A stretch of 64,000 bases of DNA from Candidatus Thorarchaeota archaeon (lineage in GTDB: Archaea > Asgardarchaeota > Thorarchaeia > Thorarchaeales > Thorarchaeaceae), in the NCBI GenBank assembly GCA_008080745.1, contig SHMX01000005.1:31515-95514 (forward strand). Reading direction: 5' to 3'. A program made the position numbers and the translations under genes. Each line of letters opens with the position of its first letter. The first letter of the stretch is position 1. Positions 26,403-54,991 of the stretch are shown piece by piece. The notes under the pieces are model-generated. The model saw only the letters and a list, made by a program, of their open reading frames with translations, did not search any database and was not told the DNA's origin.

Positions 26403-27716
26403 TTATTCAATCATGGGATCAGGTAATTTGAGCCCTTCATGTGCTTTTTCCTCAAAGACCTGCTTAGCAGCCACCATGAGGCTCTTCTCAATACCTGCAA
26501 TGTTGTGGTTGGTTGCAACAAGCATGTTGACCTTGGTGATGAGACCGTCATCATCTGTCCAGTAGTTGTGGATGAGCGTTCCGCGTGGCGCCTCCACACA
26601 ACCTACACCTTGTCCTTTTCTTGGCTCGACATCGGATAGTTTCACATCTGTACTGACTATCTCTGGGTCCTCAAGTAGCATCTCTATCTCTTCAATGGCT
26701 TGGACCAATTCGATGATTCTAGCCCAGTGGTATGCAAAAGTTGCATGTATCACTCTTCCAAGCTTGTCACGCATCTCTTGTAATGCTTCGTCAGCTAAGG
26801 GTGTTGCCATCTTGTCGACAACATTGCATCGCGCTAGTGAATTAGCTCGCCAAATTCCCTCAGGATATCCTACAGGTTTGTAATAAATGTGGGTTGCATA
26901 GGAGTGGTCGGAAACATATTCGCCCATGTATTTCTTGTAACTCCTTGGTGTGAAATCTTCAACGATTTCTCCCTCGGGGTTCATCACACGCAGCTTACCT
27001 TCGTAGATTTCTAAGTTTCCTTTGTCATGCAGACCGACATAATATGTTGGTGCAATAGCTAATTTTGTAATCGGGTCCCAGTAATCAGTCACAACTTTCT
27101 TTGCTAGGTCTACAGTTTGAAGTGTCCAATCTTTTGCTTCTTTCACCCTCTCAAGGAATATGTCTCTTTTCTCTTCAGAGAATGGATTTAGCATTCCACC
27201 TGGTGTTGCAGTAACTGGATGTATTGCTTTACCACCAACTGCTGTTACCAGATCTTGACCAAACTTCATTACTTGCAGGGCGAGTTTTCCTACATCGGGT
27301 AATTCTTTGATAATTGTGGCAACATTGCGTTTTGCAGGGTCCGCAAAGGGTCCCACAACAAAGTCCGGAGCTGCCAAGGCAAAAAAGTGCAGAGCATGAC
27401 TGCTATATTGTTTTGCATTGATTGCCAATCTTCGTAATTTTATGGCTGCCGGAGGTGGAGTTACTTTCCATGCGTCCTCAACAGCTTTCACAGAGGCAAG
27501 ATGATGTGGAACTGGGCAAATACCACAGATTCGAGGAGCAACTCTTGGTGCCTCCTCAGCAAATCTGCCCTCTAGGAACTTCTCAAAGAATCGTGTGGAT
27601 GACACATTGAATTGTACATCCTTGACTTTACCATCTTTTGTCATCTTTACTGTTAACTCACCATGTCCCTCAAGTCGGGTGACTGGATGAATTTTGATAG
27701 TCTTTTCGTCAGTCAT
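26403..27716 (-). CDS. mvhA: [NiFe]-hydrogenase large subunit (group 3c, MvhA-like) with no C-terminal DPCxxCxxH motif
   Basis: N-terminal RLEGHG...RICGICPVPHH (L1 Ni-binding motif) and an internal EAPRGTLIHNY. The ORF ends ...LPDPMIE then TAA. I found no Cys-containing continuation in any frame within the ~95 bp before the next gene. Confidence 0.85.
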   Translation of the reverse strand: MTDEKTIKIHPVTRLEGHGELTVKMTKDGKVKDVQFNVSSTRFFEKFLEGRFAEEAPRVAPRICGICPVPHHLASVKAVEDAWKVTPPPAAIKLRRLAINAKQYSSHALHFFALAAPDFVVGPFADPAKRNVATIIKELPDVGKLALQVMKFGQDLVTAVGGKAIHPVTATPGGMLNPFSEEKRDIFLERVKEAKDWTLQTVDLAKKVVTDYWDPITKLAIAPTYYVGLHDKGNLEIYEGKLRVMNPEGEIVEDFTPRSYKKYMGEYVSDHSYATHIYYKPVGYPEGIWRANSLARCNVVDKMATPLADEALQEMRDKLGRVIHATFAYHWARIIELVQAIEEIEMLLEDPEIVSTDVKLSDVEPRKGQGVGCVEAPRGTLIHNYWTDDDGLITKVNMLVATNHNIAGIEKSLMVAAKQVFEEKAHEGLKLPDPMIE

Positions 27717-28627
27717 TTCTCTTCTCTCTCCTTGTCACGAATCTTTGAAAGATATGAAGCTCCATAATCTGTAAAGTAAAAGCTACCAATTGGGTCTGGA
27801 AATGCCTTTTCCAATTCCTCTGGGTCCATGTCTGCAATGGCACCCAATGCAGAGATTATCTTTGCTCCGTGATCTTTTATTCCTGGTGGGGGTCCAAAAC
27901 AGCCCTTACAAGGAGTATTCACTGTTGGACATTGAGCACCACACATCCCTATCGTTGCAAAACCTAGACAGAGATATCCCTGATCAAGGAGGCATTTGTC
28001 GGGATCTATATGCCCCTCATGAGCACGTTTGAACTTGGTTATACTCTTCTCTTTCCGTTCCTTTGGGCATTGGTCACAGACGGTCTTTTCTGGAAGATCA
28101 TATGGTTTTCCAGTGAGTAGCGCTGATAATGCCTCTAAGGTATTCTCGCTAGTTGGAGGGCATCCTGGAAACGGGACATCGAACTTTACAATCTCCGTAT
28201 TAGGTACAACACTCTCAGTAAAGCCAGGCATCTCTTCCTCAGGTATACGACCATCTTCTACTGTATCGGCTTTTAGGAATTTTCTCTCTAGTAATTCCTT
28301 GAGTTCCCACTGATTGCCAAGTCCCTGAACACCACCATAACATGAGCAAGAGCCCCATGCAACGAGAATCTTGGCCTTCTTTCTCATAAGTTTCAGTAGA
28401 TGAACATCTTCTTTTGTTCTGCAACTTCCCTCGACTAACCCAATGTGTATAGATTCATCTGGCATTGCCTCAAGGTCCTTCAGTTTGTAATCCACCACTG
28501 CAGGCCAGTAGACAATCTCAAGCTGTGGAAGTACTTCCAACAACGTTAGATGGAGATCTACTAATGATTGGTCACAACCCCAGCATGAGGTGAGCTGTGC
28601 AAGGGCAATTCGTTTAGCCATAATCAA
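27713..28627 (-). CDS. mvhG: [NiFe]-hydrogenase small subunit (MvhG-like)
   Basis: N-terminal LAQLTSCWGCDQSL and GSCSCYGG cluster ligands. The C-terminal Fe-S Cys clusters are CDQCPKERKE and CLGFATIGMCGAQC...CKGC. Confidence 0.8.
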   Translation of the reverse strand: MIMAKRIALAQLTSCWGCDQSLVDLHLTLLEVLPQLEIVYWPAVVDYKLKDLEAMPDESIHIGLVEGSCRTKEDVHLLKLMRKKAKILVAWGSCSCYGGVQGLGNQWELKELLERKFLKADTVEDGRIPEEEMPGFTESVVPNTEIVKFDVPFPGCPPTSENTLEALSALLTGKPYDLPEKTVCDQCPKERKEKSITKFKRAHEGHIDPDKCLLDQGYLCLGFATIGMCGAQCPTVNTPCKGCFGPPPGIKDHGAKIISALGAIADMDPEELEKAFPDPIGSFYFTDYGASYLSKIRDKEREEK

Positions 28628-30921: not shown

Positions 30922-32802
30922 CTATCTTCTTGGTTTGTCATCCAACAATCCGAGTCTTCTCAGTGTGGTATCGAATGGAATGCCAGTTTCTATATCCCAC
31001 CCACGATATTCATAGTATTCGTCAAGCATCTGATTGAGTTCTACCACTTCTCCCTTATTCGGCCCTAATGGTGCTGGCTCGTCCGTAAGTCGTTTTGGTA
31101 ACTGATCATCTTTTCGTGATATTCCCAATCTGATATTGAACAGCCGATTGAGATTTACGATTCTCTCTCCTATGGTCTGTAGTTCTTCCCGGGTAAAAAC
31201 AAGTCCATTATGTATTCGGAGGGCAAGTGCAACATCTTCGTAATAGAATTCTGGAGGGATCTGTGTTCCATATTTACAAAGCCCCACACTCTCAATCATG
31301 ACCATATAGTCTTCACATTCCTTTACCATGATTCCTTTGTAGGTTGGATTCAGACGTTCTGCCATCTCTGGCAAGTATTCCTCACCAAATCGTTCTCTTA
31401 TCTCATCGTCAAATCCCGCCTCATCAAGCACAGGAAACGAATAGAGATGATCAGCTCCTCTTGCAGCTGTTACTGCAGCTAATCCCATAGATTTCTGAGC
31501 TCGTGGTTCTTGTCCGGCTATCTCTTGCTTCTTCACGGTCATAACGAATTTCTCTGTTCCCTTTCCAATCTTTTGAGCTGCGCGATAGCTTCCCTCGGCC
31601 AAGACATCACCAAAACCTTCACGCATTGCTATCATCTTGGTCAGTTTCACCACTGTTTCATGATTCCCCCACGTTAGATCTATCCCTCCTGTATCTTCAG
31701 CAGTTAATAGACCCTCATCCCATGCTTCCATTGCCCAGGATATAGTAGCACCAAGTGATATCGTATCCATTCCATATTGGTTTGCCAAATGATGCGAGTA
31801 GAGTACAGATTCGACATTATCGTTCCCACAACGGGAACCTAATGATGATTGCGACTCAAACTCAGGAGATCCTCCCTCATAGCAGTATGGTCCTGTGGGT
31901 ACAGCAGTAAACCTTCCACAGCGTTGTAGACAACTCCAATCTGCTCTTGGTTTCACAAGATAATCTTTCGTGATGGTTTCACCGCTGATTGCTTCATAGC
32001 CGTCAAATACTCCTTGACGCATATTGTAGCTTGGAAGTCTTCCAATATGATGCATAAGTTCTACAAGATTTGTTGTTCCATATCGCGCACGTTCGGGGGT
32101 GAAGGGATTAGCAAGCATACGTCTGTAGAACTCATCCATATGCCTAAGGTAATCTATTGGTTCAGCTACCTCGATTTTACCCGTTCCCCGTACTGAGATT
32201 GCTTTTATTTTCTTTGAACCCATAACAGCTCCAAGACCCGAACGAGCTGATGCTCTATCTCTGTCATTCATCACTGCTGCAAACCGAACTAGGTTCTCAC
32301 CGGCCTGTCCTATTGCTAAGACGCGGCTCTTTCTACCATATTTCTCTCTAAGATAATCATCCGTTTCAAAGACATCACTACCCCATATATCCTCGGCACT
32401 TTCCAGGGTAACATCAGAATCTCGGATATTCAGATAGACTGGATCTTTTGATGCGCCTGTAAATAATACCGCATCATATCCTGCAAGCTTAATTTCAGTA
32501 CCCCAAAAACCAGCAGAATGACTCTCACCCCAGACATTGGTCAATGGGGATAAGGCTGCGACCACTATTCTTGATGCTTGAGGAAACATGGATCCTGTCA
32601 ATAGACCGGTTGCTATACCCAATACATTCTTGGGCGATAGAGGATCGATATCCGGTGGAATCTCATCGTATAACACTTTAGAGAGATATCCTGCACCTAG
32701 AAGATACTTTTTTACAATATCTTCAGGTATCGGTCGTTTCTCTACTTCTCCTTTGGTTAGGTTGACCCAAAGAATCTCGCCACCTACTCCTTTCATTATC
32801 AA
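30922..32802 (-). CDS. Tungsten-containing aldehyde:ferredoxin oxidoreductase (AOR family)
   Basis: 626 aa with an AOR N-terminal domain (ILWVNLTKGEVEKRPIPEDIVKKYLLGAGYLSK) and family-typical internal blocks. It shows paralogous similarity to 41720..43654. Confidence 0.9.
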   Translation of the reverse strand: MIMKGVGGEILWVNLTKGEVEKRPIPEDIVKKYLLGAGYLSKVLYDEIPPDIDPLSPKNVLGIATGLLTGSMFPQASRIVVAALSPLTNVWGESHSAGFWGTEIKLAGYDAVLFTGASKDPVYLNIRDSDVTLESAEDIWGSDVFETDDYLREKYGRKSRVLAIGQAGENLVRFAAVMNDRDRASARSGLGAVMGSKKIKAISVRGTGKIEVAEPIDYLRHMDEFYRRMLANPFTPERARYGTTNLVELMHHIGRLPSYNMRQGVFDGYEAISGETITKDYLVKPRADWSCLQRCGRFTAVPTGPYCYEGGSPEFESQSSLGSRCGNDNVESVLYSHHLANQYGMDTISLGATISWAMEAWDEGLLTAEDTGGIDLTWGNHETVVKLTKMIAMREGFGDVLAEGSYRAAQKIGKGTEKFVMTVKKQEIAGQEPRAQKSMGLAAVTAARGADHLYSFPVLDEAGFDDEIRERFGEEYLPEMAERLNPTYKGIMVKECEDYMVMIESVGLCKYGTQIPPEFYYEDVALALRIHNGLVFTREELQTIGERIVNLNRLFNIRLGISRKDDQLPKRLTDEPAPLGPNKGEVVELNQMLDEYYEYRGWDIETGIPFDTTLRRLGLLDDKPRR

Positions 32803-40167: not shown

Positions 40168-41262
40168 TCACTCATAACCTAATGCAGCAAAGGGGCAGAC
40201 TGATATACACATACCGCAGGCCTGACAATCTTCAGAATTGATCTGCAATATTCCGTCTTCTTTGTTAGCTGTTATTGCGTCATATACACACGATTTCACA
40301 CAGAGACCACAGACAGTACATTTCTCGTGGTCAATACTAGGCGGGGGAGTAAGCTCTGTCAATTGTTTCAGAGCAATCCCTCTGATTTCATTAATTGACC
40401 CGTAACCATGGGTGTCCAACCATTTCTTGGTTTCATCTACTATCTTTCCATAGATAGTATGGCCCTCAAGAATTGCAGCTGTACAGACTTGAACCGCAGA
40501 TGCTCCTGCCATTACAAACTCTATGACATCCTCTCCTGATGTGACCCCTCCAACTCCCATGATGGGTAAGTCTACTGCTTGTGCAATATCTGCTACACAT
40601 CTAAGAGCGATTGGCTTAAGTGCCGGACCGCTCAACCATCCCTGGCCTCCCTCTCCACCTAGCATAGGTCTTGCTGTTTCTATATCGATTCTAAGACAGG
40701 GGCCGTATGTGTTAATAGCAACAATTCCATCCACATGGGGCTCAAGTGATTTTGCTACTTTTGCAACATCTACTTTTGGACTAAGCTTGGCAAAAATAGG
40801 AATATTTACAGAATCTCGTAATGCTTTGGCAATTTCTACATGTCCTCCTACATAGTGTGTACTGAACTCTATTGCCTCTACACCTGCCCTTTCCATCTCT
40901 GGTGCAAGTGAAGAAACCTCTTCTGGTGTATATCCAACACTTGCTACTAACGTTAATCCCGAACTCTTTGCAATTGCATATTCTTTCTCAAACCATTGTT
41001 CAGGTGGCAATTCACTCCATAATTCGGTGTTTAGAATTCCTCTTCTGGAGGATACTCTTCCTCTTCCAATTGCAGCCATATTTGGTCTTGGAATCTGTGC
41101 CCCTTTGACACTGATAGTCTTTGCAACTAGACCACCAACTCCTCCTGTTGCCGCAGTGAGAAGTGTCATTCCATCGCGTGATGTGGGACCAGCTGCTGTG
41201 AGAATTGGATTTCGAAATTTCAATCCTGCAAATTCAACCTGAAGATCTGCCATACATACCAT
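40168..41262 (-). CDS. Dihydroorotate dehydrogenase-family flavoprotein with C-terminal 2x[4Fe-4S] domain (PreA/DPD-subunit-like)
   Basis: DHOD class-1-like TIM-barrel N-terminus (LKFRNPILTAAGPTSRDG...) with two C-terminal ferredoxin motifs (CTVCGLCVKSC, CQACGMCISVCP). Confidence 0.75.
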   Translation of the reverse strand: MVCMADLQVEFAGLKFRNPILTAAGPTSRDGMTLLTAATGGVGGLVAKTISVKGAQIPRPNMAAIGRGRVSSRRGILNTELWSELPPEQWFEKEYAIAKSSGLTLVASVGYTPEEVSSLAPEMERAGVEAIEFSTHYVGGHVEIAKALRDSVNIPIFAKLSPKVDVAKVAKSLEPHVDGIVAINTYGPCLRIDIETARPMLGGEGGQGWLSGPALKPIALRCVADIAQAVDLPIMGVGGVTSGEDVIEFVMAGASAVQVCTAAILEGHTIYGKIVDETKKWLDTHGYGSINEIRGIALKQLTELTPPPSIDHEKCTVCGLCVKSCVYDAITANKEDGILQINSEDCQACGMCISVCPFAALGYE

Positions 41263-41719: not shown

Positions 41720-43654
41720 CTATGCCAGCATTCCTCTCTGCTCAAGGTCCTTTACAACGAAGTCGAGATCCAGGTCCTCAAGAACTGATTTCTTAGGATA
41801 GCCTGTTTCTTTGTCACAACCTCGTAGTTCGTAATATTCGTCTAGCATATAGTCTAGATCTGGTAATCCGCCCTTAGATGGACCTGTCGGCATGGGTTCC
41901 TTCAGTAGCCTTCGTGGTAGAGTTTCATCTTTTCTCGTGATTCCAAGCCTGTGATTATACGCACGCCTGAGATGACTGATTCTGTCCGCAGATTGTCGTA
42001 CGTATTTGACATCTCCCCATTCTACCATGCCTGTCAATGCAGGAAGCACATTTGCAAAGGTATCAAAGTAAAATATCGGGGGCCACATAGTTCCATACTT
42101 GCATATGACTGCTGAATCAGTTATTGCATAAAGGTTCTCCATGTCATAGACCACCAAGCCCTTGTGGACTGGCGACATGATCTCCTGAATCTCCTCTGCC
42201 TTGTCCTCTCCAAATCTGCGAATAGATATCTCGGGAAATCCTAATTCTTCGAGACTGGAGAGACTTCGTAAGTGATCAGCACCTCTTACGTTGGTTGCAT
42301 AGGTAAGCCCTATTGATTGATGTGCACGAGGGTCTTGACCTGATGCCTCGAGTCCCTTTGAGTGAACTGCATATTTCCATGCTTCTCCGCCTATAATTTC
42401 TGCAGCTTTTCGAGTTCCGTGAGATAATAACTCGCCAATACCCTTCTCTCGTTTAGCAATTTTTTCAATTAGAGCGTTTATGGCATCAACATTACCCCAG
42501 GACAAATCTAATCCATCAGTGTCCTTCTCGGTAAGTATTCCCTTCTCCCAGAGTTCCATTGCAAAGCTGATGGTCTTTCCACAAGAAATTGTATCCATCC
42601 CAAGTAGATCACAACGATGTCCTTGATGGAATACAGCTTCAATATCACTATTCATACAATTAGATCCGAAAGCCATGAGTGTTTCATACTCGGGTCCACC
42701 AGCAGGGCCACCTGCGAATTTTCCCTCTTTAACACGATAGACGTACTTACAACCTATCCCACAGCCATGACAAGCTTCTTGGGCAATTCGGTATTTTTCT
42801 GCAATAATCTCCGGGCCTATTTTTTCAGCCTCTTCAAAGAAGCCAGTCCAGTGATTCTTTGTCGGTAACCTTCCTATCTCGTTAATCATGGCCACCAAGT
42901 CGGTGGTTCCATAATCTCTAAGGCTCCTGAGGAAATCTTTCCATAACGGGTCGTTTAGTCGCTCCATCTCTCTCTGGTTAGCCTCAAGATATGCATCCAT
43001 ATCATGTGCCTCCAGTCCAAGCGAGCCCCGTGCAGCAATCGCCTTTACATTCTTTGAACCCAATACTGTGCCGAGACCCGTTCTACCTGCCGCACGATAG
43101 TAATCTACAATGATAGCTCCATAGAGTACCCCATTCTCACCTGCAGGACCTATAGTTGCAGTTTCTATAGCTGGGTCTCTATGCTCCTCTCTAATCATAT
43201 CTGTTGTTTCATCAGTTTCTCGTCCCCATAATCTAGAAGCGTCACGAAGTTCCGCTTTTCCATCATTTAACCAGAGATAGACTGGTTTGGGCGATTTACC
43301 ATTAAAAATGACAAAGTCGAATCCCGCATATTTAATCTCGGGACCCAGGAAGCCGCCAACATGACTCTCCGCCCAAATTCCAGTTAGAGGGCTTTTTCCT
43401 GAAAACATCATTCTTCCTGAGGGTGAAAACATTACACCTGTAAGAGGGCCTGTACCGACGATGACTATATTTTCTGGTGAAAGTGGGTCTGTATCGGGAC
43501 CAGTTCTATCCCACAGAATCTTTGATGATATACCAGTTCCTCCAAGATAGAGTCTAGCCCATTCTTTCTCCATCTCCTTTTTGTGAACCTTTCCTAGGGT
43601 AAGATCCACATCTAGATAGTATCCTGCATAACCTTTGTATGGAAAATCAGTCAT
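41720..43654 (-). CDS. Tungsten-containing aldehyde:ferredoxin oxidoreductase (AOR family), second copy
   Basis: 644 aa with an AOR N-terminal domain and conserved internal blocks. Paralogous to 30922..32802. Confidence 0.9.
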   Translation of the reverse strand: MTDFPYKGYAGYYLDVDLTLGKVHKKEMEKEWARLYLGGTGISSKILWDRTGPDTDPLSPENIVIVGTGPLTGVMFSPSGRMMFSGKSPLTGIWAESHVGGFLGPEIKYAGFDFVIFNGKSPKPVYLWLNDGKAELRDASRLWGRETDETTDMIREEHRDPAIETATIGPAGENGVLYGAIIVDYYRAAGRTGLGTVLGSKNVKAIAARGSLGLEAHDMDAYLEANQREMERLNDPLWKDFLRSLRDYGTTDLVAMINEIGRLPTKNHWTGFFEEAEKIGPEIIAEKYRIAQEACHGCGIGCKYVYRVKEGKFAGGPAGGPEYETLMAFGSNCMNSDIEAVFHQGHRCDLLGMDTISCGKTISFAMELWEKGILTEKDTDGLDLSWGNVDAINALIEKIAKREKGIGELLSHGTRKAAEIIGGEAWKYAVHSKGLEASGQDPRAHQSIGLTYATNVRGADHLRSLSSLEELGFPEISIRRFGEDKAEEIQEIMSPVHKGLVVYDMENLYAITDSAVICKYGTMWPPIFYFDTFANVLPALTGMVEWGDVKYVRQSADRISHLRRAYNHRLGITRKDETLPRRLLKEPMPTGPSKGGLPDLDYMLDEYYELRGCDKETGYPKKSVLEDLDLDFVVKDLEQRGMLA

Positions 43655-49579: not shown

Positions 49580-50356
49580 CTATTCTCTCTCTTTCAGATG
49601 TTCGACAAGTGGGAAGATTGGTTCTCCTTTCAGGTCTTTTAGGAACTTGTACGCTTCATCTATCTGTTCGTCATCGCCTTCAACATAGAATGTGACCGAT
49701 CCTTCCGCCCCGTTAATGCCTCCGGCAGAAATTGGGATTGCATATACATCAAATAATGCCTCAAGAGCCTCCATCTCTGTAAATGGAATTCCCTCTGGTA
49801 CCGCAATGACCCCAACGGGCTCACCAATTGCATAATCCCATTGGTCTCTCCCAAACTCGCCAACAAAATCTCCATATTCTGATGGAATACATTTTTCCAA
49901 TCCCGCAGGCATAATTATAGGAATGTTTCGGGCAGCTGCTGTTCCTAAAAATGAACCAACTGTCCCACCAGTACCACTAGCCAATAGAACTAACGGTATA
50001 AGGTTTGCATCCAAAGCATTTGCACTCTTAATGATTACATCATCGGGTCCCATTTCATCGATGACATCTTTCACTTTGGTCTTCTCCATATATTCTCCCT
50101 TGTGAAAGATTGCATCATATGCTCTCATCTTGCTATCTGTGACCCAGAGACCGTGTGGTATTGTGAGACCTGCTATGTGTCTACTCTTATCATATTCTCC
50201 AAGAATCTCTTCTACTAGATATGCACTGGTGGTCCCCAAAGTCACACAGAGGTATCCGTGATGCAAGGCGGCTTGGACAATATCTGTTGCAAGGAGTCCT
50301 TTTGCGATTAGTCGTTTACTCTCTGCAACGGTCAATGTAACGAGAAGTTTCTTCAT
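49580..50356 (-). CDS. Hypothetical conserved protein (alpha/beta; GTGGTVGSFLG motif)
   Basis: 258 aa with no family recognised by eye. It sits between purB and the ABC exporter genes on the same strand. Confidence 0.4.
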   Translation of the reverse strand: MKKLLVTLTVAESKRLIAKGLLATDIVQAALHHGYLCVTLGTTSAYLVEEILGEYDKSRHIAGLTIPHGLWVTDSKMRAYDAIFHKGEYMEKTKVKDVIDEMGPDDVIIKSANALDANLIPLVLLASGTGGTVGSFLGTAAARNIPIIMPAGLEKCIPSEYGDFVGEFGRDQWDYAIGEPVGVIAVPEGIPFTEMEALEALFDVYAIPISAGGINGAEGSVTFYVEGDDEQIDEAYKFLKDLKGEPIFPLVEHLKERE

Positions 50357-50393: not shown

Positions 50394-51770
50394 TTACTTT
50401 GTCGAACTAGTCAAGTCATCGTGATAAGCAGCGATTGTCTTTCGTACCAGTCCCCATGAGACCGTTCGTATCGTTGAGAAGTATTTTTCCAAGTCCAAAT
50501 CGCTATCTTTGAGAAGCTTTGACAATTCTTTGTCCTTTTTCACCATCTCAAGTAATCCCTTGCCCTTCTTTCCTCCTTCTGATAACATATCTCTGAGTTT
50601 CTCATGAGCCTTAGGCCTCTCCATCCCTGCCTTGGTCAGCTCTGTAATGACATACTCGCTTAGTATCTGATTGTTGGACAATTCGAGATTACGTTTAATC
50701 GCTTCTTCGTCTATCTCAAGACCCTCTATCACTCGTTTCATTTCTCGAACAAGGTAATCCACTAGAATGAATGCCTGTGGAAACACAAAACGTTCTGTTG
50801 ACGAGTGTGATATATCTCGTTCTTCCCAGCTCACCACATTCTCTAATGCTGGTTGCACTAGACTGCGAACAAAACGAGCAATACCACTGATCTTCTCGCA
50901 GGTGACAGGATTCCGTTTATGCGGCATAGCTGATGAGCCAACCTGTTTACCTTTTGCAAAAGGTTCGTAGGTTTCAGCAATCTCGGTTCTTTGAAGATTT
51001 CTCAGGTCGGTAGCAATCTTATCAAGAGATGATGCGAGATTTGCAAGAGTACATACGACCTCAGCATGCCGATCTCGCTGAGTTATCTGGGTTGTAACAA
51101 TAGGAAAGTGAAGTCCCAGTTTTTTCAGAACTTTTTCCTGCATTAACAATCCCTTAGGTCCCAATGCCGCATGGCTTCCGGTGGCACCAGCTAGTTTTCC
51201 GACAATGACTCTTTCCCGGGCAGCTAAGAGTCGTCTTCGATGCCGTCTGATTTCATCAAGCCAGACTGCAAATCTCAGCCCATACGTTATTGGAACCGCA
51301 TGTTGTCCATGTGACCTTCCAACCGCAACCAGATCCTTTGTTTCAACTGCTCGATTCACCACCGCCATGCACAGCTCCTCCACCTTTGGCATAAGCACAT
51401 CGAAGGCATCCTTGAATTGAAGTGCAAGAGCTGTGTCTTTTACATCATTACTGGTTAACCCAAAATGCACCCATCTGGCTCCAGGTCCTTGACACTGCTC
51501 TGCGATGGCTTCAAACAAGGCTGCAATATCATGCCGCGTTCTAGCCTCTATCTCCATTGTTCGTTCCAGTGTCACGGTTTCTGGGATGGCTGCTATGACA
51601 ATATCTCCAGCTGCATCAGCAGGAATTAGGCCAATCTCCGATTGAACCTCTGCTACTGTTGCCTCTATCTTCAACCAGAGTTTGTGTCTGTGTTCCTCTT
51701 CAAAAATCTTGATCATATCAGGATGACCATATCTTCCATAATCAATGGGACATACTGGCATTTGGTCCAA
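50394..51770 (-). CDS. purB: Adenylosuccinate lyase
   Basis: Fumarate-lyase-family signature GSSAMPHKRNP. The PurB-typical N-terminus reads YGRYGHPDMIKIFEEEHRHKLWLKIEA. 458 aa. Confidence 0.85.
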   Translation of the reverse strand: MDQMPVCPIDYGRYGHPDMIKIFEEEHRHKLWLKIEATVAEVQSEIGLIPADAAGDIVIAAIPETVTLERTMEIEARTRHDIAALFEAIAEQCQGPGARWVHFGLTSNDVKDTALALQFKDAFDVLMPKVEELCMAVVNRAVETKDLVAVGRSHGQHAVPITYGLRFAVWLDEIRRHRRRLLAARERVIVGKLAGATGSHAALGPKGLLMQEKVLKKLGLHFPIVTTQITQRDRHAEVVCTLANLASSLDKIATDLRNLQRTEIAETYEPFAKGKQVGSSAMPHKRNPVTCEKISGIARFVRSLVQPALENVVSWEERDISHSSTERFVFPQAFILVDYLVREMKRVIEGLEIDEEAIKRNLELSNNQILSEYVITELTKAGMERPKAHEKLRDMLSEGGKKGKGLLEMVKKDKELSKLLKDSDLDLEKYFSTIRTVSWGLVRKTIAAYHDDLTSSTK

Positions 51771-51871: not shown

Positions 51872-52870
51872 ATGATGTTGAATAGATTAGGCTCAATTAA
51901 AATGATTAATTCCTATTCCGATCCCGACATCCTCAAGAGAATACTAGGCGTTGCAAAATCAATCAGGAACCGATCTCTTCCTGAGATTCTAAGAAACCGT
52001 CAAAATATAAAGAATGTTCACAGTCTTCTCTATAATCCTGCACCTTATGAATTACAATTAGCCCAATCTGTATGTAGTTTACTCTCCATTGGGTTGGGCG
52101 AGTTTGGATTACCCACTTTGTTTACTCCCTCTGCAGATGAAATAATCATGGAATTTAATCTAGTCGCTAGAGCCTGTGATTTGCTTCTCAGTTCCTTTTA
52201 CGACCAGTCAAAATTAGGTAATGGACGCTCAATCACTTTGAAATTTGCAGAAAGAACATCTACCCCTCTCATTTCTCTGGGTGACGAGATACACTCTTTT
52301 CAATCAGCACTTGGTTATCTCTTTCCAATTTTTCAACGTCTTGGAGAACTTCAAAATAGAGATATCGTAATCTCTTGGGCTTTTGATAATCGATTCTCAC
52401 TACCTTCTGTTCCTCAGAGTCTGCTTTTGTTGGGATCTATCTTAGGCTCTAATGTTCAAGTAAGGGCTCCACATGATTTTCCCTTACTTCGTCGTGTGGT
52501 CCGGGACTCGAAGGAGGTTGCAAAGGAATCGGGTGGCTCTGTTGAAATTATTCACACTCCACCAGATGATATACAGCAAGCTGATGTGGTATTTGCTTTC
52601 AACTGGTGTAGCTTGAATGAGTTTATTCGTCCTGAGAGAAATGCTGAACTGGCCAAGAGCTATCGTGATTGGCATATCTCTCAAGAGGCTCTTGGGCGCG
52701 CATTATTCATGACCGAACCCCCCGTAAGAACTGGTATTATCGCAGATAGAAGTATCATTGATAGTCCATCTAATCTCACTCCAAATTGGCTGGAGTCTAG
52801 GATTCACATTCTGTTGGCATCCATTGCTACATTATTTGACTCTGATTTTTCTATTAACGCTCTGGTATGA
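51872..52870 (+). CDS. Degenerate aspartate/ornithine carbamoyltransferase-fold protein (probable pseudo-enzyme)
   Basis: The family motifs occur in order but are mutated: STRTR becomes RTSTP (GRSITLKFAERTSTPLISLG), HPxQ becomes HSFQ, GD.NNV..S becomes GSILGSNVQV, DVWxS becomes ADVVFAFNWCS, and HCLP is absent. Confidence 0.45.
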   Translation: MMLNRLGSIKMINSYSDPDILKRILGVAKSIRNRSLPEILRNRQNIKNVHSLLYNPAPYELQLAQSVCSLLSIGLGEFGLPTLFTPSADEIIMEFNLVARACDLLLSSFYDQSKLGNGRSITLKFAERTSTPLISLGDEIHSFQSALGYLFPIFQRLGELQNRDIVISWAFDNRFSLPSVPQSLLLLGSILGSNVQVRAPHDFPLLRRVVRDSKEVAKESGGSVEIIHTPPDDIQQADVVFAFNWCSLNEFIRPERNAELAKSYRDWHISQEALGRALFMTEPPVRTGIIADRSIIDSPSNLTPNWLESRIHILLASIATLFDSDFSINALV

Positions 52871-52876
52871 ATCATA

Positions 52877-54028
52877 TTGTTAGTTCATATGCTTTATCAG
52901 GAAGGATGTTCACTTCTTTGTCGTATGTGGCGTTTCATGCGACCTGATGCAAAACGAGTTTGGAAGGACCCCGAGGTGGTCAAACGGTTATCTCGATACC
53001 GAAAAATTATAGATGATAAGAGATGGGCGAAATATCTTTTGGCCAAAGACATCCCTATATCTGGCGATTTAAGTCGCACAACAGAGGAACTTTGGACATC
53101 TCATAGACCGCATTCTAAAGAATTTAGCAAGTATATTGAGAAGGTAGATTCAGGTGATGATCGACAACCACAACACAATCAATCAACACTAACCTTCCTA
53201 GACCTTAAGATAGAATTAGCGAATAGAATTCTTTCCAATTGCCATTTTTGTGAACGTAGATGTGGAGCTGACAGAACTAAAGACAAGACTGGCTGGTGCA
53301 AATTAGATAGCGTTTCGCGTGTTTCATCGGCATTTCTGCACTCCGGAGAGGAGGCTCCCTTGGTTCCCAGTGGTACAATTTTCTTTTCCTCCTGCTGTTT
53401 TGGATGTGTGTTCTGCCAAAATGACGATATCTCTACCAATCCTCGATCAGGAAGAGCAGTAACTCCTCCTGAATTGGCATCAGTTGCTGAACAGCTCTTC
53501 TCCGATGGTGCTATCAATATCAATTATGTTGGCGGCGACCCCATTCCCAACACTCATACCATCCTTGCCTCACTGCGTTTTCAAGCTTCCAATGTCACAC
53601 AACTCTGGAATTCTAACTTGTATTGTTCAATTGAAACGATGCGTCTCTTATGCGATGTTTTTGATGTCTGGCTTCCAGATTTCAAGTATGGCAATAATGA
53701 ATGTGGAGAACGCCTCTCTGGAGTAAAAGACTATTTTTCCATTGTTTCCAGAAATCATCTCATGGCTTATAACTCGGGTGAGGTAATAATACGGCATCTC
53801 GTTATGCCAAATCACATTGATTGTTGCACAATCCCCATCTTGGAATGGGTGGCTGAGAATATGCCTAATTGCATGGTCAACATCATGGCACAATACCGAC
53901 CAGAACATCTGGTACTTCAGCGACCAGATGAGTTTCCCGAAATTGGGCGGCGTGTATTGAGCGGCGAGATGCATCGTGCCCAAGAGAAGGCTGATGAATT
54001 AGGTATCTGTTGGCGTCCTGTAAGCTAG
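52877..54028 (+). CDS. Radical SAM protein, PflX (COG1313)-like
   Basis: N-terminal CHFCERRCGADRTKDKTGWC (CxxCxxxC...GxC, as in the PflX family) followed by the radical-SAM cluster CCFGCVFCQN (Cx3Cx2C). Confidence 0.6.
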   Translation: MLVHMLYQEGCSLLCRMWRFMRPDAKRVWKDPEVVKRLSRYRKIIDDKRWAKYLLAKDIPISGDLSRTTEELWTSHRPHSKEFSKYIEKVDSGDDRQPQHNQSTLTFLDLKIELANRILSNCHFCERRCGADRTKDKTGWCKLDSVSRVSSAFLHSGEEAPLVPSGTIFFSSCCFGCVFCQNDDISTNPRSGRAVTPPELASVAEQLFSDGAININYVGGDPIPNTHTILASLRFQASNVTQLWNSNLYCSIETMRLLCDVFDVWLPDFKYGNNECGERLSGVKDYFSIVSRNHLMAYNSGEVIIRHLVMPNHIDCCTIPILEWVAENMPNCMVNIMAQYRPEHLVLQRPDEFPEIGRRVLSGEMHRAQEKADELGICWRPVS

Positions 54029-54035
54029 GCCTCTT

Positions 54036-54599
54036 CTAGAACGCACTCGCCTCAATCAGGCTATCATCTATCACGATACACTCATCGCAGACCTCAAGGA
54101 GTTCATCCAGCGTCCTTGTCATTGCTCGGCCTTGACTGTCATAACAATCTCGATAATATATCTTAGTCAAGACGCCAGCGTCTTTTGCGGACTCGATAGC
54201 TGGAACAAAGTCGCTATCGCCAGTTACCATGATTGCAGTACCAATCTGTTTGCCCCAGGCCATTCTCATGAGATCCACAGTAAGTAGAACATCAACTCGC
54301 TTCTGGTAGAATTCACCCGTTGATGCATTATGTGCGGTCTTCCCTAATCTGACCACAAACCGATTGAGCTTGGTGAGACTGCTGGCAAATCGTTCGTGAT
54401 TCTCATGTCTTCTCTCTTCTTCGTCAGTTGGTTCCTGGCTGATATAGGGGGGACAATCATACACGTAAGTCCTAAGACGTTCTTTGTCTTCACAAAGATA
54501 GTTCGAAAATTTTTCAAAATCTATTCTCGGTTCATCAAAACAATATTTCAGAACCTTTCCAAAATATCCAATGTCTATAAATACAGCTGCCCTGTTCAC
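54036..54599 (-). CDS. NYN-domain (LabA-like PIN-family) protein
   Basis: AVFIDIGYF...VDVLLTVDLM...IMVTGDSDFVPAIESAKDAGVLT reproduces the conserved acidic residues of NYN nucleases. Confidence 0.7.
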   Translation of the reverse strand: MNRAAVFIDIGYFGKVLKYCFDEPRIDFEKFSNYLCEDKERLRTYVYDCPPYISQEPTDEEERRHENHERFASSLTKLNRFVVRLGKTAHNASTGEFYQKRVDVLLTVDLMRMAWGKQIGTAIMVTGDSDFVPAIESAKDAGVLTKIYYRDCYDSQGRAMTRTLDELLEVCDECIVIDDSLIEASAF

Positions 54600-54754: not shown

Positions 54755-54991
54755 ATGTGTCTTGCAGTACCTGCCTTGGTCTTGAGTATTGAAGGGGACT
54801 ATGCCGAAGTTGACTTTGGCGGTGTTAAGAAGAAGGTCTGTGTATCCTTGCTTCCAGAGTTAGAACCTGGCGAGTATGTGATTATTCATACTGGATACGC
54901 CATCGAGAGTATGAAGCCTGAGGAGGCCAAAAAGACACTTGCACTTTTCGAAGAGATGGCACAAATATCACTTGATGATGAGAAGTCGTAA
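54755..54991 (+). CDS. hypC: HypC/HybG-family hydrogenase maturation chaperone
   Basis: N-terminal MCLAVP motif with the essential Cys2, then ...GEYVIIHTGYAIE. 78 aa. Confidence 0.7.
   Translation: MCLAVPALVLSIEGDYAEVDFGGVKKKVCVSLLPELEPGEYVIIHTGYAIESMKPEEAKKTLALFEEMAQISLDDEKS

What the first reader, a model, noticed from the sequence alone, without database searches (positions are those of the whole stretch)
51872..54028. Carbamoyltransferase-fold protein with all catalytic motifs degenerated, tightly linked to a PflX-type radical SAM enzyme
51872..52870 keeps the order and spacing of the ATCase/OTCase landmark blocks but has RTSTP for STRTR, HSFQ for HPxQ, FNWCS for DVWxS, and no HCLP. These are the substitutions expected for loss of carbamoyl-phosphate binding and catalysis, so it looks like a pseudo-enzyme or an enzyme with a new specificity. 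It is followed 6 nt later by a PflX-family radical SAM gene (CxxCxxxC...GxC, then Cx3Cx2C). The pairing of a 'dead' transcarbamylase scaffold with a radical SAM enzyme is not something I recognise as a described system.
Basis: partly seen in the sequence, partly recalled or inferred. Interest (0 to 1): 0.55.

Follow-up and report, generated by a model that had tools for sequence, protein, structure and literature searches.

The report
Dead transcarbamylase-fold family in Thorarchaeota

Summary
The core observation holds. Window 51902-52870 (+) encodes a full-length transcarbamylase-fold protein (AlphaFold pLDDT 94; TM 0.80 to N-acetylornithine transcarbamylase) with none of the carbamoyl-phosphate or substrate motifs. 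Three details are wrong. RTSTP is not the STRTR position. The His of "HSFQ" is an outlier within the family. The gap to the radical SAM gene is 54 nt, not 6.

The gene is not a decaying copy. About 30 diverged clusters, all Thorarchaeota, share replacement motifs (NWCR, TEPP, YRDW), and dN/dS is 0.06-0.16. The protein nevertheless evolves about 3 times faster than the radical SAM neighbour.

The pairing is common but not tight. The genes are adjacent in 15 of 20 Thor loci, split by unrelated genes in 4, and unlinked in 1. The radical SAM gene carries its own conserved BRE/TATA-like element inside the gap, and it occurs widely in archaea and bacteria without the partner. The junctions with purB and HypC are about as stable.

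Best reading: a Thorarchaeota-specific, non-carbamoylating paralogue of the knotted AOTCase clade with a remodelled, more acidic cleft. It probably binds a ligand or has a new function, and it sits in a conserved gene block rather than a dedicated two-gene system. Its function is unknown. Interest is moderate.

The parts
51902..52870 (+). Transcarbamylase-fold protein (322 aa) that lacks all carbamoyl-phosphate and substrate motifs. It is a member of a Thorarchaeota-restricted family. The mechanical ORF begins at 51872, but orthologs support the ATG at 51902.
   Evidence: PF00185 at 45.1 bits, above the cutoff. AF2 pLDDT 94.2. Foldseek TM 0.80 to AOTCase 3l02/3kzk over 322 columns. Family of about 30 clusters. 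Motif table. Omega 0.06-0.16.
52040..52054 (+). Position homologous to the S-T-R-T-R carbamoyl-phosphate loop. It reads A47-P-Y-E-L51 here. Only the Thr column is conserved in the family, and it holds Glu or Asp in 27 of 29 members.
   Evidence: Profile alignment to 1a1s; column counts.
52283..52306 (+). D128-E-I-H-S-F-Q-S135, the region homologous to HPxQ. D128 is invariant in the family. The catalytic His column holds Ser here and Ala in 19 of 29 members.
52601..52612 (+). N234-W-C-S237, which replaces D-V-W-x-S (A-K-S-W in AOTCase). Asn is present in 28 of 29 members and Trp in 29 of 29.
52712..52729 (+). T271-E-P-P-V-R276, which replaces H-C-L-P-x-R. The family consensus is T-E-P-P-V-Q.
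52886..52899 (+). BRE/TATA-like element 'ttcatatgctttatc' inside the 54-nt gap. It ends 26 nt upstream of the radical SAM ATG and is conserved in every Thor locus examined, including loci without an adjacent OTC-like gene.
   Evidence: 16 of 16 loci; further loci. Background frequency 0.009 per 13-nt window.
52925..54028 (+). PFL-activase-like ('PflX'-type) radical SAM protein, 367 aa. It has an N-terminal C-x2-C-x3-C-x11-C motif, the C-x3-C-x2-C SAM cluster motif, and further invariant Cys residues (C276, C316, C317 in 383-aa ORF numbering).
   Evidence: PF04055 at 35.9 bits. Orthologs are 64-84% identical across Thorarchaeota and all start MWR. Only a weak PDB match, to PFL-AE 3c8f.
50394..51770 (-). 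purB (adenylosuccinate lyase), divergently transcribed. It is the usual upstream neighbour of the OTC-like gene (13 of 16 informative loci).
   Evidence: TIGR00928 at 463 bits against a cutoff of 326. Synteny.
54755..54991 (+). HypC/HupF-family chaperone gene. It is the second most frequent neighbour of the radical SAM gene in Thorarchaeota, lying downstream on the same strand.
   Evidence: PF01455 at 90.5 bits. TIGR00074 at 76.6 bits against a cutoff of 48. Neighbour clustering.

Best explanation
The gene at 51902-52870 encodes a member of a Thorarchaeota-specific family. The family descends from the 'knotted' N-acetylornithine-transcarbamylase branch of the Asp/Orn carbamoyltransferase superfamily.

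SHOWN: It keeps the complete two-domain fold. It has lost every residue that binds carbamoyl phosphate (both Arg and the Ser/Thr of STRTR, Arg106, His/Gln of HPxQ, Cys of HCLP, the following Arg) and the AOTCase substrate Lys. The gene is kept under purifying selection but evolves about 3 times faster than its neighbours.

INFERRED: It therefore cannot carry out carbamoyl transfer. The cleft positions are not random. They carry family-conserved replacements (Glu/Asp at the STRTR Thr, invariant Asp128, Asn234-Trp235, Thr-Glu-Pro-Pro). The net effect is that a phosphate-binding, basic pocket has become a neutral-to-acidic, aromatic one. My commitment is that the protein is a non-carbamoylating binding protein, either a pseudoenzyme acting as a sensor or scaffold subunit, or an enzyme with a different non-anionic substrate. 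Its ligand is most likely a cationic amine or amino-acid-type compound.

RELATION TO THE NEIGHBOUR: The downstream PflX-type radical SAM gene is an older, widely distributed and much more conserved gene with its own promoter. The two lie side by side because both sit in a gene block that is conserved in Thorarchaeota (ABC-unk258-purB <- | -> OTC-like, rSAM, HypC, NTP-transferase, glycosyltransferases). They are not an obligatory two-gene system.
For: Fold: pLDDT 94.2; TM 0.80 and E 7.5e-20 to AOTCase over 322 columns.

Affinity to the AOTCase clade: the best curated model for the window protein and three other members is NF003384, at 55-81 bits. The family shares the SW...P loop insertion that classical OTCase lacks.

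Loss of motifs across 29 members.

Distinct family: an exhaustive search gives 34 representatives below 1e-30, then a gap to canonical enzymes at about 1e-21. All labelled members are Thorarchaeota or Promethearchaeota.

Selection: omega 0.063 (L012/L013) and 0.159 (L016/L067). Median dN is 2.9 times that of the rSAM over 189 pairs. Median identity is 33% against 68%. The gene has the highest dN of 13 syntenic genes.

Independence of the rSAM:
- Its own conserved BRE/TATA-like box.
- Insertions between the genes in L002, L008, L066 and L068.
- An rSAM without the partner in L004/L005.
- No partner in any locus where the rSAM is 50% identical or less.
- Comparable stability of the other junctions in the block.
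Against: The OTC-like gene is still the single most frequent neighbour of the Thor rSAM (position -1, same strand, 15 of 20 loci). A functional link is therefore not excluded. No ligand, partner or activity has been shown. The 'acidic cleft' inference rests on homology of alignment columns, not on inspected coordinates. An internal promoter does not rule out read-through co-transcription. Strong short-term purifying selection (omega 0.06) also fits a real enzyme.
Confidence: 0.6

Rival explanations
1. Functional module. The dead transcarbamylase scaffold is a dedicated partner of the PflX-type radical SAM enzyme, as an adaptor, a substrate-presenting subunit or the protein substrate. This would resemble RaSEA, which works only in complex with ArcS, and PFL-activases, which act on a protein substrate. 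HypC might be a third component.
For: Same-strand adjacency in 15 of 20 distinct Thor loci, despite 27-52% identity among OTC-like members and saturated dS. It is the most frequent neighbour in the clustering. In L074/L075 the insertion falls after the rSAM and keeps the pair together. The RaSEA-ArcS precedent shows a radical SAM enzyme that needs a non-rSAM partner (PMC11298593).
Against: The rSAM has its own conserved promoter box in the gap. In 4 loci the genes are split by unrelated genes, some on the opposite strand, and by a transposase. In L004/L005 the rSAM sits in another context without the partner. rSAM orthologs at 40-50% identity in Sulfolobales, Desulfurococcales, Thermoplasmata, Archaeoglobi and other Asgard archaea lack any OTC-like neighbour, so the rSAM's substrate predates the family. 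Evolutionary rates are discordant by about 3-fold. The purB and HypC junctions are equally stable.
Confidence: 0.22
2. Neofunctionalised enzyme. The fold now catalyses a different reaction that does not use carbamoyl phosphate, on an unknown substrate. The conserved Asp128, Glu272, Asn234, Arg198 and Tyr131 would be the new catalytic or binding residues. The function might relate to the divergently transcribed purB.
For: Family-specific motifs are conserved at cleft-homologous positions. Omega is as low as 0.06. The divergent purB neighbour is conserved in 13 of 16 loci.
Against: Long-term evolution is fast (median identity 33%) and only 9 columns are invariant, which is unusual for an enzyme active site. 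The former CP-binding N-terminal domain is the less conserved half (column entropy 2.31 against 1.91 bits). No described transcarbamylase-fold enzyme works without the STRTR/HPxQ set (my knowledge of the family).
Confidence: 0.15
3. Decaying, lineage-specific pseudogene or mis-called ORF.
For: It has the highest dN in its neighbourhood, and the catalytic motifs are lost.
Against: Intact ORFs of 313-330 aa occur in about 30 clusters that are 50% or less identical to each other. Omega is 0.06-0.16 with unsaturated dS. The replacement motifs are conserved. The fold prediction is confident.
Confidence: 0.01

Closest known systems
N-acetyl-L-ornithine transcarbamylase (AOTCase, ArgF'; PDB 3kzc/3kzk/3l02; NCBIfam NF003384), with the related knotted transcarbamylases SOTCase and YgeW
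   Same: Best structural match (TM 0.80, full length) and best curated sequence model. It shares the two-domain architecture, the invariant Trp of the 'SW' strand, the extended Pro-containing loop that classical OTCase lacks, the Trp of the '..SW..' 240s-loop motif, and the W of 'DW'.
   Different: It scores 80.7 bits against a cutoff of 288. It has no S-x-R-T-R, no Arg106 equivalent, no H-P-x-Q, no H-C-L-P-x-R-R and no Lys252 equivalent. It is not in an arg operon, unlike the true AOTCase P0161, which lies in argG-C-D-F'-B. The conservation pattern is inverted, with the C-domain more conserved than the N-domain.
Ornithine carbamoyltransferase (for example P. furiosus OTCase, PDB 1a1s)
   Same: Best sequence and profile match in the PDB (E 8.9e-24 over positions 3-313). 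TM 0.77.
   Different: All catalytic residues differ (alignment). It scores 54.7 bits on TIGR00658 against a cutoff of 280.85.
PFL-activating-enzyme-like radical SAM proteins: 'PflX'/COG1313-type proteins, labelled 'putative pyruvate formate lyase activating enzyme' by JGI, and the AmmeMemoRadiSam rSAM. These are comparators for the neighbouring gene.
   Same: C-x3-C-x2-C motif and a Radical_SAM domain. There is weak similarity to PFL-AE 3c8f and TIGR02493. Orthologs carry the JGI label.
   Different: It reaches no curated equivalog cutoff: PFLA 27.8 against 231.75, AmmeMemoSam_rS 11.3 against 220. It has an extra roughly 100-aa N-terminal domain and a Cys4 motif. No glycyl-radical enzyme, AMMECR1 or Memo gene lies nearby.
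RaSEA-ArcS (a radical SAM enzyme that is active only in complex with a non-rSAM partner). This is an analogy only.
   Same: It shows that a radical SAM enzyme can be paired with a catalytically distinct scaffold protein (PMC11298593).
   Different: There is no sequence evidence that this rSAM is RaSEA, and no ArcS-like gene is present. The analogy is conceptual.

Membership tests
Asp/Orn carbamoyltransferase superfamily (fold level) | Two Rossmann-like domains (CP domain and amino-acid domain) joined by the N- and C-terminal helices | tested here: met
   AF2 pLDDT 94.2. Foldseek TM 0.74-0.80 to AOTCase, OTCase and YgeW over about 320 columns.
Asp/Orn carbamoyltransferase superfamily (sequence level) | Pfam OTCace (PF00185) C-terminal domain above the gathering score | tested here: met
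   45.1 bits against 29.4.
Asp/Orn carbamoyltransferase superfamily (sequence level) | Pfam OTCace_N (PF02729) carbamoyl-phosphate-binding domain | tested here: not met
   No hit at E<=1. Canonical relatives P0003, P0125 and P0161 carry PF02729.
Catalytically active transcarbamylases | S-T/x-R-T-R carbamoyl-phosphate loop | tested here: not met
   The window has A-P-Y-E-L. Family columns are variable, and the Thr column holds E16/D11 of 29.
Catalytically active transcarbamylases | Arg106 equivalent and the H-P-x-Q motif | tested here: not met
   Arg becomes Ser, Thr or Leu. The catalytic His column holds Ala19/Ser6. The Gln column holds Ser, Ala or Pro.
Catalytically active transcarbamylases | H-C-L-P motif and the following Arg | tested here: not met
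   T-E-P-P-V-(Q/E/R). His becomes Thr16/Ser6, Cys becomes Glu18, Arg becomes Gln16.
N-acetylornithine carbamoyltransferase (NF003384 equivalog) | Score at or above the curated cutoff of 288 bits | tested here: not met
   80.7 bits for the window protein and 55-70 bits for three other members. True AOTCases score 335-476 bits.
N-acetylornithine carbamoyltransferase | Arginine-biosynthesis gene context | tested here: not met
   The neighbours are purB, the rSAM, HypC and glycosyltransferases. The canonical P0161 lies in argG-argC-argD-argF'-argB.
Knotted transcarbamylases (AOTCase/SOTCase/YgeW) | Trefoil knot formed by the Pro-rich loop threading the 240s region | not testable with these tools
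   The sequence keeps the extra loop (SWGFGxxFxLPxxAHS, against the 5-residue deletion in OTCase). Model coordinates could not be inspected for knot topology.
Radical SAM superfamily (neighbouring gene) | C-x3-C-x2-C motif and PF04055 above the gathering score | tested here: met
   C173/C177/C180 are invariant. 35.9 bits against 29.5.
Glycyl-radical-enzyme activases (PflA, TIGR02493) | Score at or above the curated cutoff, and a glycyl-radical enzyme partner | tested here: not met
   27.8 bits against 231.75. No GRE gene in the 64-kb window among the ORFs scanned.
AmmeMemoRadiSam system | TIGR04337 rSAM with AMMECR1 and Memo neighbours | tested here: not met
   11.3 bits against 220. AMMECR1/Memo neighbours occur only next to distant relatives (L025, L042, L048).
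'PflX' / COG1313 | Membership of the COG | not testable with these tools
   No COG library is available. Orthologs carry JGI's label 'putative pyruvate formate lyase activating enzyme'. Literature searches for PflX and COG1313 returned nothing relevant.
Known anti-phage defence systems (PADLOC) | Any model hit for either gene of the pair | tested here: not met
   No hits for the OTC-like protein or the rSAM protein.

The most novel reading that the evidence does not exclude
The dead transcarbamylase scaffold, the PflX-type radical SAM enzyme and the orphan HypC form a Thorarchaeota-specific functional module. The former carbamoyl-phosphate and amino-acid cleft, now acidic, would hold a cationic substrate or metal-bound intermediate for radical SAM chemistry. 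A link to [NiFe]-hydrogenase cofactor maturation is conceivable, because carbamoyl-phosphate-derived ligands and HypC already act there and the anaerobic source of the CO ligand is unresolved (my background knowledge).
Probability: 0.07. Interest if true: 0.8.

Novelty: new variant of a known kind. Interest (0 to 1): 0.42.

Why it matters
Every characterised transcarbamylase (ATCase, OTCase, AOTCase, SOTCase, PTCase, YgeW) keeps the STRTR and HPxQ carbamoyl-phosphate site. A whole family under selection that keeps the fold and has replaced that site would be, as far as I could find, the first natural 'pseudo-transcarbamylase' lineage. It would be a clean case for studying how an anion-binding enzyme cleft is repurposed.

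There is also a practical consequence. Some members are auto-annotated as 'ornithine carbamoyltransferase', which can create false arginine-pathway calls in metabolic reconstructions of Asgard archaea.

The conserved block with a housekeeping-like, uncharacterised PflX-type radical SAM gene and an orphan HypC gives a defined and testable set of candidate partners.

Tried and rejected
(1) The word-indexed homolog searches with the single protein and with a 4-sequence profile found only 3-4 proteins. That wrongly suggested a near-orphan. The exhaustive HMM search corrected it.

(2) The first AlphaFold run used 3 sequences and was useless (pLDDT 45.7). The 73-sequence alignment gave pLDDT 94.2.

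(3) The search for related loci with the 29-member family alignment failed because no stretch was conserved enough. I anchored on the rSAM instead.

(4) Literature searches returned nothing relevant: 'PflX' alone and with 'radical SAM', 'COG1313', 'transcarbamylase + pseudoenzyme', and 'Thorarchaeota/radical SAM/HypC'.

(5) RaSEA identity for the rSAM: the paper gives no sequence, and no curated model supports it. I kept it only as an analogy.

(6) A possible HypE link through the AIR-synthase-family neighbour of the bacterial rSAM relatives is rejected. That gene is SelD (344 bits; HypE 39 bits against 251.6).

(7) AmmeMemoRadiSam membership is rejected.

(8) Defence-system membership is rejected.

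(9) The pseudogene hypothesis is rejected.

(10) The first all-pairs dN/dS script timed out and was redone from one MSA per gene.

(11) I first counted Asp93 as part of a 'charge inversion'. I withdrew it, because in the profile alignment it matches an Asp that OTCases also have.
Full report
WHAT IS THERE

The window matches a Candidatus Thorarchaeota MAG. The protein is 100% identical to the hypothetical protein BAJATHORv1_50094. Two same-strand ORFs occupy 51872-54028.

Ortholog alignments move both starts. The first gene most likely begins at the ATG at 51902, because orthologs start MI[NH]SYSD. The second begins at the ATG at 52925, because all orthologs start MWR. The true intergenic gap is therefore 54 nt.

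purB lies divergently upstream (TIGR00928, 463 bits). A NYN-domain gene lies convergently downstream, and then HypC, an NTP-transferase and several glycosyltransferases follow.

THE FOLD AND THE MOTIFS

The first protein scores above Pfam's gathering threshold on the C-terminal OTCace domain (45.1 against 29.4 bits). It does not match OTCace_N. Its best curated model is N-acetylornithine carbamoyltransferase, at 80.7 bits against a cutoff of 288.

An AlphaFold model built from three sequences was poor (pLDDT 45.7). A model built from a 73-sequence alignment is excellent (pLDDT 94.2, pTM 0.93). It superposes over its full length on X. campestris AOTCase (TM 0.80, E 7.5e-20), P. furiosus OTCase (TM 0.77) and YgeW (TM 0.74). 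Both domains of the transcarbamylase fold are therefore present.

A family profile aligned to 1a1s over positions 3-313 (E 8.9e-24), together with column counts over 29 members, gives this map:

| Canonical element | State in the family |
|---|---|
| S-T-R-T-R | Unconserved, except that the Thr column holds Glu or Asp in 27 of 29 |
| Arg106 | Ser, Thr or Leu |
| Catalytic His of HPxQ | Ala19 / Ser6 |
| Gln of HPxQ | Ser, Ala or Pro |
| D-V-W-x-S (A-K-S-W in AOTCase) | x-(L/F)-N-W-C-R; Asn 28 of 29, Trp 29 of 29 |
| H-C-L-P-x-R | T-E-P-P-V-Q |

RTSTP lies just before the HPxQ region and is not homologous to STRTR. The His of 'HSFQ' is an oddity of this one sequence, since 24 of 29 members have Tyr there.

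A FAMILY, NOT AN ACCIDENT

The word-indexed searches suggested a near-orphan. The exhaustive profile search of 1.84 billion representatives found 34 clusters below 1e-30, about 29 of them full length at 313-330 aa. A clear gap then separates them from canonical (A)OTCases, which begin at about 1e-21.

All labelled members come from Thorarchaeota or 'Promethearchaeota' MAGs. NCBI calls them 'hypothetical protein', and JGI calls some 'ornithine carbamoyltransferase'.

Members are only 27-52% identical to the window protein. They still share their own motifs: TFGxGR, SLxDDxYAxQxAL, ISWGFG, LLxRV, HPERN, YRDWYF, FxTEPP and NLTxxW. The nearest canonical relative, P0161, is a true AOTCase (335 bits) in an argG-C-D-F'-B operon. 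The family shares with AOTCases the extended SW...P loop that OTCases lack.

SELECTION

Against the syntenic genome L001, this gene has the highest dN of 13 genes: 0.40 against 0.04-0.24. In the two genome pairs with unsaturated dS, omega is 0.063 and 0.159. The radical SAM gene gives 0.052 and 0.090 in the same pairs. Over 189 pairs, median dN is 2.9 times that of the radical SAM gene, and median identity is 33% against 68%. The gene is functional, under purifying selection, and evolving quickly over long time spans.

Unusually for this superfamily, the C-terminal domain is more conserved than the former carbamoyl-phosphate domain (column entropy 1.91 against 2.31 bits).

IS IT COUPLED TO THE RADICAL SAM GENE?

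The neighbour is a PFL-activase-like radical SAM protein. It has an N-terminal C-x2-C-x3-C-x11-C motif, the C-x3-C-x2-C SAM cluster motif, and further invariant Cys residues. It reaches no curated family cutoff, and its only PDB sequence match is weak, to PFL-AE. It has more than 7000 relatives below 1e-10.

I anchored a scan of species-representative genomes on this protein and obtained 60 loci. An HMM of the OTC-like family finds the partner only next to the Thor-type rSAM (64% identity or more). It never appears next to relatives at 50% identity or less in Sulfolobales, Desulfurococcales, other Asgard archaea, Thermoplasmata, Archaeoglobi or bacteria.

Combining all contexts gives:
- 15 distinct Thor loci with the genes directly adjacent on the same strand.
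- 4 loci with 1-4 kb of unrelated genes between them. L002 has two small opposite-strand genes. L008 and L066 have a GT4 and other genes. L068 has five genes, including an opposite-strand dehydrogenase and a DDE transposase.
- 1 locus (L004/L005) where the rSAM sits in an unrelated context.

The purB|OTC-like junction is intact in 13 of 16 loci, and the rSAM|HypC junction is similarly stable. In L074/L075 the sugar-gene insertion falls after the rSAM instead.

The 54-nt gap contains a BRE/TATA-like element, TTCATAG-N-CTTTTATC. It ends 24-27 nt before the rSAM ATG and is conserved in every Thor locus examined, including those where the OTC-like gene is absent or kilobases away. The background frequency is 0.009 per 13-nt window. 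The OTC-like gene's own upstream region shows no comparably conserved element.

The rSAM is therefore an independently promoted, older and far more widespread gene. The adjacency is common, but it cannot be distinguished from conservation of a larger gene block.

MOST LIKELY MECHANISM

Shown: the fold is intact, all carbamoyl-phosphate and AOTCase substrate contacts are lost, family-specific replacements are conserved at cleft-homologous positions, and the gene is under purifying selection.

Inferred: no carbamoyl transfer takes place. Five basic contacts are gone (two Arg of STRTR, Arg106, His, the Arg after HCLP, plus the AOTCase Lys). Acidic residues are gained or kept (Glu/Asp at the STRTR Thr, invariant Asp128, Glu272, and Asp/Glu after TEPPVQ in 24 of 29 members). 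This points to a neutral-to-acidic, aromatic pocket suited to a cationic amine-type ligand, or to no small-molecule ligand at all.

I commit, at about 0.6, to a non-carbamoylating binding or pseudoenzyme role that does not depend on the radical SAM gene. A dedicated partnership with the radical SAM enzyme is at about 0.22. A genuinely new enzymatic activity is at about 0.15. A pseudogene is excluded.

COMPARISON WITH WHAT IS KNOWN, AND NOVELTY

The protein works like none of the described transcarbamylases, and it fails every catalytic membership feature that I tested. It belongs to the superfamily by fold and by C-domain sequence only.

I found no description of a transcarbamylase-fold family lacking the STRTR/HPxQ site, and none of this gene pair. 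I rate it a new variant of a known kind. It is a real, lineage-restricted and uncharacterised family. The 'dead scaffold plus radical SAM system' framing that made it look exotic is only weakly supported. Interest is moderate (0.42).

SIDE CHECKS

- The bacterial AIR-synthase-family neighbour of distant rSAM relatives is SelD, not HypE.
- Neither gene of the pair matches a defence-system model.
- The rest of the window is ordinary Thorarchaeota metabolism, including [NiFe]-hydrogenase subunits about 25 kb away.

Noticed in passing
window 52886-52899; same position in L001-L017, L066-L068, L071, L073, L074: A conserved BRE/TATA-like element (TTCATAG-N-CTTTTATC) ends 24-27 nt upstream of the radical SAM ATG in every Thorarchaeota locus. 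The spacing suggests a leaderless or very short-leader transcript.
   Followed up: yes
window 54755-54991 (+): An orphan HypC/HupF-family gene (TIGR00074, 76.6 bits) is conserved just downstream of the radical SAM gene on the same strand in at least 9 Thor loci. No hypD, hypE or hypF lies nearby. The [NiFe]-hydrogenase large and small subunits sit at 26403-28627 (-).
   Followed up: partly
window 54036-54599 (-): A NYN-domain gene sits between the rSAM and HypC only in the window, L001 and L003. It gives weak PADLOC hits (NYN and HEC-09). It looks like a recent insertion into the block.
   Followed up: partly
L002, L008, L066, L068, L074/L075: Glycosylation genes (GT2, GT4, epimerases, formyltransferase, DegT) and a DDE transposase have inserted at different junctions of the otherwise conserved block. 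The region looks like a hotspot for sugar-gene insertion.
   Followed up: partly
L066:2308-4429: A MazE-like and AbiEi/AbiEii toxin-antitoxin cassette is inserted between the conserved unknown gene and purB in one Thorarchaeota genome.
   Followed up: no
window 49580-50356 (-): A 258-aa protein is conserved next to the ABC ATPase in all Thor loci (67-85% identity). It has no Pfam, NCBIfam or PADLOC match.
   Followed up: partly
L033, L036, L038, L040, L041, L055: Distant bacterial relatives of the radical SAM gene (about 35% identity) repeatedly have selD two genes upstream, plus an SLT-domain gene. Other relatives (L025, L042, L048) sit next to AMMECR1/Memo. The wider family has several distinct contexts.
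   Followed up: partly
P0152, P0290, P0291 (JGI metagenome proteins of the family): Members of this motif-less family are auto-annotated 'ornithine carbamoyltransferase'. This risks false arginine-pathway calls in Asgard metabolic reconstructions.
   Followed up: yes
L001:6614-7876 (-): The closest syntenic genome has an extra 420-aa gene between purB and the OTC-like gene that the window lacks. Its only hit is a weak DUF5518 match.
   Followed up: no
window 30922-32802 (-) and 41720-43654 (-): Two aldehyde:ferredoxin oxidoreductase paralogues and a DHODH-like Fe-S protein (40168-41262) lie upstream of the block. These are ordinary Thorarchaeota fermentative metabolism genes.
   Followed up: no
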